NCBI RefSeq assembly: GCF_003334355.1
Contig: NZ_QOWP01000024.1
Direction: 5' to 3' (one strand)
Length of the DNA stretch: 64,000 nt
Source: Escherichia coli
GTDB taxonomy: Bacteria > Pseudomonadota > Gammaproteobacteria > Enterobacterales > Enterobacteriaceae
Shown: piece after piece, positions 12,001 through 12,323 of the stretch
Layout of the letters: every line of letters starts with the position of its first letter
Numbering within the stretch: position 1 is the first letter of the stretch
Position numbers: made by a program

Positions 12001-12323
12001 CGCGGGGCAGGCACGTTCTGACGCGATGGAAGCCATACGTTGTGCCGGGCAAAAAGACTGGCAGGGCGCAACTCAGCTAATGGCCAGTTCTGAATCTGCC
12101 TGTCTTCAGGCACATAAGATTCAGACCGCATTAATTAGTCAGGATGAAGGCTGTGGCAAAATAAAAGTTAATTTAATTCTGGTTCATGCACAGGATCATT
12201 TGATGAATGCAATATTATGCCAGGATTTAGCCAGGGAAATTATTTCATTAAGAAAAGAACTCCATGCCTGATTTTTTCCTCCAGTGCGATAGCTGGAGGA
12301 AATTATTATACTCTTAAGGATAA

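What the first reader, a model, noticed from the sequence alone, without database searches (positions are those of the whole stretch)
12276..12301. Stem-loop between the EIIA and porin genes inside the operon
A 9-bp stem sits 5 bp after the EIIA stop and 25 bp before the porin start. Without a following T-run it is unlikely to be a full terminator but could attenuate read-through or mark a processing site, giving differential expression of the cytoplasmic PTS components and the outer-membrane porin.
Basis: seen in the sequence. Interest (0 to 1): 0.25.

Follow-up and report, generated by a model that had tools for sequence, protein, structure and literature searches.

The report
Conserved RNA hairpin before operon-internal porin gene
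The stem-loop is real and has been kept by compensating mutations just upstream of the porin gene in related sugar-uptake operons of about ten enterobacterial genera, so it is a working RNA structure, most likely a boundary that lets the two halves of one messenger RNA decay at different rates rather than a transcription stop signal.

Summary
The hairpin exists as described. It spans window 12275-12302 (+), with 10 Watson-Crick pairs plus a closing U·G. RNA ΔG is -19.3 kcal/mol (z = -6.4). It lies 3-4 nt after the EIIA stop and 24-25 nt before the porin ATG.

The locus is the E. coli eamA-marB islet (GntR regulator, EIIB, EIIC, EIIA, porin, 6-phospho-β-glucosidase). Its gene content fits the published bgc operon. 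In this strain EIIC and the porin each carry a 1-nt frameshift.

The hairpin is single-copy and has no Rfam match. It is kept 22-31 nt upstream of the porin start in 20 of 22 orthologous operons. Ten of these lack EIIA. Eight of 12 pairs show double (compensatory) changes.

The sequence after the stem is A/U-rich, and A-rich in most genera, not a U-run. All 20 versions fail a terminator discriminant that canonical terminators in the same window pass. In most genera the porin is followed by a canonical terminator.

Best reading, inferred and not shown: an intercistronic mRNA stability or processing boundary (malE-malF or papB-papA type) separating the PTS cistrons from the porin cistron. This is a new member of a known kind, of modest interest.

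The parts
9288..9986 (-). Divergent GntR-family regulator gene (BgcR-like)
   Evidence: RefSeq annotation of a 100%-identical strain (L001 coordinate + 5899 = window coordinate). tblastn 98% to the B2 allele.
10185..10496 (+). PTS EIIB gene, first gene of the operon
10611..11932 (+). PTS EIIC gene, frameshifted here (1-nt deletion near 11247)
   Evidence: Split into two ORFs. Annotated 'frameshifted' in the identical strain. The indel was mapped against the intact allele L002.
11960..12271 (+). PTS lactose/cellobiose-family EIIA gene; stop TGA at 12269-12271
12275..12302 (+). The hairpin: 5' arm 12275-12285, loop 12286-12291, 3' arm 12292-12302 (TTTCCTCCAGT/GCTGGAGGAAA)
   Evidence: ΔG -19.3, z -6.4. 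Single copy in the window and per genome. Conserved with compensatory changes in 20 of 22 orthologous operons. No Rfam family.
12303..12315 (+). A/U-rich single-stranded spacer (TTATTATACTCTT) between the hairpin and the porin ribosome-binding site
   Evidence: Predicted unpaired. The counterpart AAAUAAUAAUUAUA is conserved in most genera. A similar A/U-rich leader occurs in distant porin paralogues that lack the hairpin (L027, L028).
12316..12320 (+). Shine-Dalgarno AAGGA of the porin gene, 6 nt before the ATG, outside the hairpin
   Evidence: Read from the sequence. Unpaired in the hairpin fold. An IS1 is inserted here in strain TUM14664.
12327..13999 (+). Carbohydrate porin gene (BgcH-like, ScrY/LamB type), frameshifted here (1-nt deletion near 13725; the ORF stops at 13727)
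14024..15463 (+). 6-phospho-β-glucosidase gene, last gene of the operon
15488..15515 (+). Operon-end 12-bp hairpin between the glucosidase gene and marB; it also has no U-run on either strand

Best explanation
The hairpin is a selected RNA structure on the + strand polycistronic mRNA of the bgc-type β-glucoside/cellobiose PTS operon. It sits in the spacer that separates the cytoplasmic and inner-membrane PTS cistrons (EIIB-EIIC-EIIA) from the outer-membrane porin cistron.

Its most likely role is a decay or processing boundary. RNase E would cut in an adjacent A/U-rich single-stranded stretch. One candidate is the conserved A/U-rich porin leader just 3' of the stem; the other is the U-rich stretch just 5' of it. 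After that cut the stem would act in one or both of two ways. It could block 3'-to-5' exonucleases and so protect the upstream PTS segment (malE-malF model). Or it could form a 5'-terminal stem-loop that protects the porin segment, which in most genera also ends in a canonical terminator (papB-papA model). Either way the two halves of one transcript would acquire different half-lives and hence different expression.

Shown here: the structure, its conservation by covariation, its fixed place before the porin start, its absence from non-operonic porin paralogues, and its failure as a terminator. Inferred: the cleavage, the exonuclease block, and which side is stabilised. In this particular strain the element is probably idle, because EIIC and the porin are frameshifted.
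For: Structure: stable and non-random (z -6.4, top 0.17% of windows).

Selection for pairing: in an alignment of 20 orthologues, 8 of 12 pairs carry changes on both sides. 84.8% of cells are paired, against 24-52% when the 3' arm is slid by 1-3 columns. 0 of 500 shuffles reach the observed covariation score. The loop and flanks vary freely.

Strand: 8 G·U against 3 A·C cells in the core pairs, favouring + strand RNA. The E. coli B2 allele lost one C of the 5' arm yet keeps 10 pairs through a U·G.

Position: the hairpin lies 22-31 nt before the porin ATG in 20 of 22 R<-|IIB-IIC-(IIA)-porin operons. Ten of these lack EIIA; there it follows EIIC at a longer and more variable distance (roughly 40-80 nt). 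There is exactly one copy per operon and none elsewhere.

Context: more distant porin paralogues with no close upstream gene share the A/U-rich leader but have no hairpin, so the hairpin goes with the polycistronic context.

Not a terminator: the discriminant is negative in 20 of 20, and tails mostly start AAAUAAUAAU. The same score is positive for canonical terminators in the window. The porin itself is followed by a canonical stem plus U-run in Enterobacter, Cedecea, Raoultella, Klebsiella, Ewingella and Buttiauxella.

Loss and replacement: one lineage that lost the hairpin (Raoultella sp., L016) carries another strong structure right after the EIIC stop.

Precedent: conserved 3'- and 5'-protective intercistronic structures shape many E. 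coli operons (PMC5927463). The independent bgl operon of K-12 has a 13-bp hairpin between bglB and the porin gene bglH.
Against: No transcript data were available, so no RNA ends, half-lives or coverage have been seen. The RNase E motif (RN|WUU) is so degenerate that matches in A/U-rich flanks on both sides carry no weight. Erwinia psidii (L034) has the same EIIA-porin junction with no hairpin, so the element is dispensable. The base of the stem (CCU...AGG) is invariant in all 20 sequences. A pure 'any stable hairpin' barrier does not explain that, and it hints at a sequence-specific partner. The near-constant distance to the porin ATG would also fit a role in translation initiation. The sequences are related by descent, so part of the covariation signal reflects a few events inherited by several taxa.
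Confidence: 0.45

Rival explanations
1. Leaky intrinsic terminator (attenuator): a fraction of RNA polymerases stop just after the stem, so less porin and glucosidase mRNA is made than PTS mRNA.
For: The loose consensus scan lists it as terminator-like in this allele (11 pairs, tail TTATTATACT). The stem is G+C-rich at its base and strong. The analogous K-12 bglB-bglH hairpin has a moderately U-rich tail.
Against: There is no contiguous U-tract. The discriminant did not reach zero for this allele in the window-wide scan (only 5 sites with d>0, this one not among them) and is clearly negative for all orthologues. The intact B2 allele has the tail AAUUACUACAC. Most genera have AAAUAAUAAUUAUA directly after the stem. 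What is conserved after the stem is A/U-richness shared with hairpin-less porin leaders, not U-richness. The same operons use canonical U-run terminators after the porin.
Confidence: 0.13
2. Part of the porin's translation-initiation module. The hairpin would insulate the A/U-rich leader and ribosome-binding site from the upstream coding RNA. Alternatively it would present a sequestered Shine-Dalgarno-like GGAGG/GAAGG as a standby or trans-factor (Hfq/sRNA/protein) docking site, setting or regulating porin translation independently of the PTS genes.
For: The distance to the porin ATG is near-constant at 22-31 nt, whatever gene lies upstream. It is co-conserved with the A/U-rich leader and SD. 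The CCU...AGG core is invariant, so the 3' arm always carries an SD-like RAGG and the 5' arm an anti-SD-like CCUCC/CCUUC. Many enterobacterial porin mRNAs are sRNA targets (general knowledge).
Against: The real SD (12316-12320) and AUG are outside the hairpin and predicted free with or without it. No start codon lies at SD distance from the GGAGG (read from the sequence). Spot 42 and ChiX show no better-than-shuffled pairing with the leader in 12 orthologues (z from -2.2 to +1.7, no consistency). The short spacing may simply be inherited.
Confidence: 0.2
3. A DNA-level palindrome: an operator for a dimeric DNA-binding protein (for example the GntR-type regulator) or a recombination site.
For: It is a perfect inverted repeat in DNA with an invariant core.
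Against: Both half-sites change together in ways that keep pairing but not sequence (CCTCCAG, GCCTTCAG, GCCTCCGG, GCCTTTAG). G·T wobbles are tolerated more than A·C. The spacing between arms varies from 4 to 8 nt. No second copy lies in the regulator-operon promoter region or anywhere else in the loci. It sits about 2 kb inside the transcription unit.
Confidence: 0.04
4. A functionless relic, for example the decayed terminator of an ancestral EIIB-EIIC-EIIA operon onto which the porin gene was later joined.
For: It is located exactly at a gene-module junction. It is absent from Erwinia psidii and one Raoultella without obvious consequence. The operon is decaying in this E. coli lineage.
Against: A relic would not keep pairing through at least 8 independent double substitutions and a compensating slip across about ten genera while its loop and flanks diverge.
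Confidence: 0.08

Closest known systems
malE-malF intercistronic stabiliser (3'-protective structure) of the E. coli malEFG operon
   Same: A stable stem-loop in an intercistronic spacer, directly after the stop codon of the upstream gene. An RNase E-prone segment follows it. It would block 3'-5' exonucleases and raise expression of the upstream cistron(s) (model as summarised in PMC5927463).
   Different: The mal element is a REP repeat present in hundreds of genomic copies. This hairpin is single-copy and unrelated in sequence. No decay data exist for it.
papB-papA intercistronic 5' stem-loop of uropathogenic E. coli
   Same: The hairpin lies just upstream of a cistron for an abundant exported or outer-surface protein. 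That cistron also ends in a strong terminator in most genera. Cleavage upstream of the hairpin would leave a 5'-terminal stem-loop that shields the downstream mRNA from RNase E (PMC5927463).
   Different: A conserved cleavage site within a few nt upstream of the stem is not evident outside E. coli. In E. coli the sequence is UGA|UUUUUU. Other genera have 9-12 unpaired nt after the nearest plausible site.
iscR-iscS intergenic hairpin with RyhB control (iscRSUA)
   Same: The layout is the same: upstream cistron, strong hairpin, then the A/U-rich translation-initiation region of the next cistron. That layout allows a trans-acting RNA to destroy the downstream part while the upstream part survives (my knowledge of Desnoyers et al. 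2009; the operon is listed in PMC5927463).
   Different: No sRNA partner has been identified. Spot 42 and ChiX tested negative.
Intrinsic (Rho-independent) terminator
   Same: A G+C-rich stem of 10-12 bp with a short loop, directly after a stop codon.
   Different: It lacks the U-tract. It is followed by an A-rich sequence in most orthologues, lies inside an operon, and fails the discriminant that true terminators in the same window pass.
bglB-bglH junction hairpin of the E. coli K-12 bgl operon
   Same: An independent β-glucoside PTS operon with a 13-bp hairpin in the spacer just upstream (35 nt) of its internal porin gene.
   Different: The upstream gene is different (phospho-β-glucosidase). 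The sequence differs and the tail is more U-rich. Its conservation was not examined here.

Membership tests
Intrinsic terminator | Stable G+C-rich stem-loop | tested here: met
   ΔG -19.3 kcal/mol, 11 pairs.
Intrinsic terminator | U-tract immediately 3' of the stem | tested here: not met
   The tail is UUAUUAUACU here and AAAUAAUAAUUAUA or similar in most orthologues. The discriminant (d'Aubenton-Carafa form, formula recalled from memory) is negative in 20 of 20, and positive for canonical terminators at 6639-6656(+) and 17501-17488(-).
Intrinsic terminator | RNA polymerase releases the transcript there | not testable with these tools
   Needs in vitro transcription or Term-seq.
REP/BIME or other intergenic repeat family | Many copies per genome sharing a consensus | tested here: not met
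   One match in the 64-kb window with up to 3 mismatches. Median of one place per genome in 2504 E. coli genomes. The covariance model finds one copy per operon only.
Intercistronic mRNA-stability/processing hairpin (malE-malF, papB-papA type) | Stable structure in the spacer between two cistrons of one transcription unit | tested here: met
   Same orientation, 55-nt spacer. No sigma-70-like promoter was reported at the junction.
Intercistronic mRNA-stability/processing hairpin (malE-malF, papB-papA type) | Structure conserved across species | tested here: met
   20 of 22 orthologous operons; 8 of 12 pairs with compensatory changes.
Intercistronic mRNA-stability/processing hairpin (malE-malF, papB-papA type) | Adjacent RNase E cleavage site in single-stranded RNA | tested here: inconclusive
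   A/U-rich unpaired stretches flank the stem, with GA|UUU upstream and AA|AUU downstream in E. coli. The motif is too degenerate to score.
Intercistronic mRNA-stability/processing hairpin (malE-malF, papB-papA type) | Different half-life or abundance of the flanking mRNA segments, dependent on the stem | not testable with these tools
   Needs rifampicin-chase RNA-seq or Northern blots and stem mutants.
SD-sequestering riboregulator / RNA thermometer | The structure occludes the SD or start codon of the regulated gene | tested here: not met
   SD 12316-12320 and AUG 12327 lie outside the hairpin and are unpaired in the hairpin fold; only a weak, low-frequency long-range pairing with the EIIA 3' end appears in the 101-nt MFE.
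BglG/SacY-type RAT-terminator antitermination module | RAT sequence overlapping a terminator, with an antiterminator gene in the locus | tested here: not met
   The regulator is GntR-type, no antiterminator gene is present, the hairpin is not a terminator, and there is no Rfam match.
Any curated Rfam family | Covariance-model match | tested here: not met
   No match at E<=1 in window 9000-16000. None at the homologous site in 7 orthologous loci.
bgc operon of E. coli (Neelakanta, Sankar & Schnetz 2009) | Divergent GntR-type regulator plus a five-gene operon: EIIB, EIIC, EIIA, porin, phospho-β-glucosidase. Accessory in E. coli and present in E. albertii | tested here: met
   Gene content and order. 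Present in 2504 of 5426 complete E. coli genomes and in E. albertii. The description of bgc comes from PMC3585215 and from my memory of the abstract. The primary paper was not available, so the identity of the locus was not checked against its sequence.

The most novel reading that the evidence does not exclude
The hairpin, the invariant CCU/AGG core and the conserved A/U-rich leader together form a porin-specific post-transcriptional control module. A trans-acting factor (an Hfq-dependent envelope-stress or carbon-source sRNA, or a protein recognising the SD-like arm) would silence or boost only the outer-membrane porin cistron, while the hairpin shields the upstream PTS mRNA. This would be an iscRSUA/RyhB-like or chiP/ChiX-like arrangement, embedded in a horizontally spreading β-glucoside operon family and conserved across Enterobacterales.
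Probability: 0.1. Interest if true: 0.55.

Novelty: new member of a known kind. Interest (0 to 1): 0.3.

Why it matters
If the reading is right, this is a clean natural example of how a mixed-compartment operon sets different amounts of cytoplasmic or inner-membrane transport components and an outer-membrane porin from one promoter. The example is supported by covariation and is portable between operon architectures, with or without EIIA. It would add a small, well-defined cis-RNA element (about 67 nt with its leader; model R1) that genome annotation currently misses. It is also easy to test genetically, because natural variants exist: a weakened B2 stem, hairpin-less Erwinia psidii and Raoultella operons, and an IS1 insertion next to it. 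It does not change any general principle, since intercistronic protective hairpins are well established.

Tried and rejected
- Rfam search of the window region and of seven orthologous loci: nothing at the site.
- Repeat-family idea (REP/BIME/MITE): rejected because the element is single-copy.
- Canonical terminator: rejected by tail composition and by a discriminant with positive controls. The loose scan does flag it.
- Internal promoter: Kluyvera-type leaders contain TATAAT about 20 nt before the ATG. There is no -35 match, the box is absent from E. coli B2, E. albertii and Salmonella, and no site was reported at the junction. I judged it unlikely but did not exclude it for Kluyvera.
- Leader peptide after the SD-like GGAGG: no ATG, GTG or TTG at suitable spacing.
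- Anti-SD switch (5' arm pairing with the true SD): only 4 complementary bases, so rejected.
- Long-range pairing of the EIIA 3' end with the porin SD around the hairpin: it adds only about 2 kcal/mol, has ensemble frequency 0.01, and cannot exist in EIIA-less operons.
- RNase III site: the stem of 10-12 bp is too short (established knowledge).
- sRNA pairing: duplex energies of K-12 Spot 42 and ChiX against the -30..+20 leader of 12 orthologues were no better than dinucleotide shuffles. Other sRNAs were not tested.
- Primary bgc paper: not held in the library, so I could not check whether the authors mention the stem-loop.

Full report
**Observation**

The reported inverted repeat is present at the stated coordinates: TTCCTCCAG (12276-12284), loop tgcgatag, CTGGAGGAA (12293-12301). 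It extends by a T-A pair to 12275-12302, and RNAfold adds a closing U·G.

- As RNA on the + strand it folds at -19.3 kcal/mol. Dinucleotide shuffles average -5.6 (z = -6.4; 0 of 200 shuffles fold as well).
- On the - strand it folds at -15.4 kcal/mol.
- Only 14 places on the + strand of the 64-kb window fold as well in a 41-nt window, and this region has only about 38% G+C.
- The porin's own Shine-Dalgarno (AAGGA, 12316-12320) lies outside the stem.

**Context**

The segment 9900-15600 is 100% identical to chromosomes of several E. coli strains. There it lies between eamA and marB. It comprises a divergent GntR-family regulator, PTS EIIB, EIIC and EIIA, a carbohydrate porin and a 6-phospho-β-glucosidase.

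This gene content matches the bgc β-glucoside operon of Neelakanta, Sankar and Schnetz (2009), as described in PMC3585215 and listed among the four E. coli β-glucoside systems in PMC4488073. The primary paper was not available.

The junction sequence occurs once per genome in 2504 of 5426 complete E. coli genomes.

In the window's allele the EIIC and porin genes each carry a 1-nt deletion (near 11247 and 13725) relative to an intact B2-type allele. RefSeq marks both as frameshifted in an identical strain. The operon is therefore probably dead in this strain, although the hairpin is intact.

**Variation within E. coli**

Sampled alleles differ in the loop (G to T), in the tail (T to C) and by loss of one C from the 5' arm in the B2-type allele. 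That deletion slides the T-run into the stem, so ten pairs remain, one of them a U·G. Nothing sampled disrupts the stem.

**Comparative evidence**

A scan of one genome per species with the intact porin protein returned 31 loci. Twenty-one of them, together with E. coli, are orthologous operons of the form regulator <-| EIIB-EIIC-(EIIA)-porin.

- A hairpin at the homologous position is present in 20 of 22 sequences. These are two E. coli alleles, E. albertii, Citrobacter, Salmonella diarizonae, two Raoultella, Klebsiella sp., three Cedecea (C. neteri, C. davisae and an uncultured isolate), Ewingella, four Kluyvera, two Enterobacter sp. plus an unclassified Enterobacteriaceae isolate (RIT693), and Buttiauxella.
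- The arms differ between lineages: CCTCCAG/CTGGAGG, GCCTTCAGCC/GGCTGAAGGC, CCCTCAGCC/GGCTGAGGG, GCCTCCGGTT/AACCGGAGGC and GCCTTTAGCC/GGTTAAAGGC.
- On the alignment, 8 of 12 pairs show changes on both sides. 84.8% of cells are paired, against 24-52% when the partner is slid by 1-3 columns. No shuffle out of 500 reaches the observed covariation score.
- G·U cells outnumber A·C cells 8 to 3 in the core, which points to RNA of the + strand rather than a DNA palindrome or a - strand RNA.
- A covariance model built from the alignment finds exactly one copy per operon. It finds nothing elsewhere in the window or in the loci of more distant porins.
- No Rfam family matches.

**Which gene the hairpin goes with**

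In ten of the operons there is no EIIA gene. The porin follows EIIC after a longer spacer, and the hairpin is still there, 27-30 nt before the porin ATG. Across all 20 the distance from the stem to the ATG is 22-31 nt. The distance from the upstream stop varies from about 4 nt to roughly 40-80 nt in the EIIA-less operons.

The stretch between stem and ribosome-binding site is A/U-rich and itself conserved (AAAUAAUAAUUAUA in most genera). A very similar A/U-rich leader precedes more distant porin paralogues (L027, L028). These have no close upstream gene and no hairpin. So the A/U-rich leader belongs to the porin's initiation region, and the hairpin appears when the porin is an internal or distal cistron.

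Two lineages lack the hairpin. Erwinia psidii has the same EIIA-porin order. One Raoultella has lost EIIA and the hairpin but has a different strong structure right after the EIIC stop.

**Not a terminator**

There is no U-tract. In this allele the tail is UUAUUAUACU, which is enough for the loose scan to list it. The B2 allele has AAUUACUACAC, and most genera start the tail with three or four A.

I used a stem-energy plus T-tail discriminant of the d'Aubenton-Carafa form, with the formula recalled from memory. It is negative for all 20. Run over the whole window, it is positive at only five sites, and the junction hairpin is not among them. Those five include the textbook-looking terminators at 6639-6656 (+) and 17501-17488 (-).

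In Enterobacter, Cedecea, Raoultella, Klebsiella, Ewingella and Buttiauxella the porin is the last gene. It is followed by a canonical stem plus U-run. These operons therefore use ordinary terminators where they terminate.

**Mechanism**

The best-supported reading is an intercistronic decay or processing boundary. Dar and Sorek (PMC5927463) describe two general models in E. coli:

- A 3' structure that stops PNPase and RNase II after a downstream RNase E cut, protecting the upstream cistron (malE-malF).
- A structure that becomes the 5' end after an upstream RNase E cut, shielding the downstream cistron, which is also protected by its terminator (papB-papA).

They report that such structures are conserved between genera. 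The present element has the anatomy for either model: single-stranded A/U-rich sequence on both sides, an immediate position after the upstream stop where EIIA is present, and a terminator-capped porin cistron downstream in most genera. I cannot tell from sequence which side is stabilised, and no transcript data could be consulted. This step is inference (confidence about 0.45). I regard it as well supported (about 0.85) that the element is a selected + strand RNA structure.

An independent β-glucoside operon, bgl of K-12, also has a 13-bp hairpin between bglB and its porin gene bglH. That suggests a recurring design.

**Rivals**

- Leaky terminator (0.13): see the section above.
- Role in porin translation or in docking a trans-acting factor (0.20): this is kept alive by the constant spacing and by an unexplained feature. 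The base of the stem, CCU...AGG, never varies in 20 sequences while the pairs around it covary. The 3' arm therefore always carries an SD-like RAGG and the 5' arm an anti-SD-like tract. A limited test with Spot 42 and ChiX from K-12 found no better-than-random pairing to the leader.
- DNA operator (0.04): disfavoured by covariation without sequence conservation, variable arm spacing and wobble tolerance.
- Functionless relic (0.08): disfavoured by the compensatory changes.

**Verdict**

This is a real, conserved, previously uncatalogued cis-RNA hairpin of an ordinary kind. Interest is modest.

Noticed in passing
window ~11247 and ~13725: EIIC and the porin gene each carry a 1-nt deletion relative to the intact B2-type allele. 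RefSeq flags both as frameshifted in a 100%-identical strain, so the operon is probably non-functional in this lineage.
   Followed up: yes
window 15488-15515: A 12-bp hairpin (about -22.6 kcal/mol) lies between the 6-phospho-β-glucosidase stop and the convergent marB. It has no U-run on either strand, so the islet's 3' end also lacks a canonical terminator.
   Followed up: partly
L039 3256-3285 (-), E. coli K-12 bglB-bglH spacer: The unrelated bgl operon has a 13-bp hairpin 10-15 nt after the bglB stop and 35 nt before the porin gene bglH. This parallels the bgc junction.
   Followed up: partly
L006 (strain TUM14664), equivalent to window 12319/12320: An IS1 is inserted inside the porin Shine-Dalgarno, directly after the hairpin and leader. 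Other strains (hits H10-H12) carry IS1 or IS5 insertions elsewhere in the islet, so the locus is decaying repeatedly.
   Followed up: partly
window 10497-10610: The EIIB-EIIC spacer is unusually long (114 nt), A/U-rich and weakly structured (z -2.1). Its length ranges from about 25 to about 320 nt among genera. The chb operon's EIIB-EIIC spacer is a known sRNA decoy, so this one may merit a look.
   Followed up: no
A2 columns 18-20 / 39-41 (window 12278-12280 / 12297-12299): The invariant CCU...AGG at the base of the stem in all 20 orthologues gives an always-present SD-like RAGG in the 3' arm and an anti-SD-like tract in the 5' arm. A simple barrier model does not explain this.
   Followed up: no
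L027 and L028, ~3955-4000: Distant porin paralogues (56-57% identity) share the A/U-rich leader AAAUAUAAUAAUAUUAUCGRGGAUAACUC but have no hairpin and no close upstream gene.
   Followed up: partly
L016 ~3795-3850 (Raoultella sp. BIGb0138): This operon has lost EIIA and the canonical hairpin but has a different strong structure immediately after the EIIC stop. It may be a functional replacement.
   Followed up: no
window 6639-6656 (+) and 17501-17488 (-): Canonical intrinsic terminators (stem plus U-run), used here as positive controls. The second directly follows the ydeA stop.
   Followed up: partly
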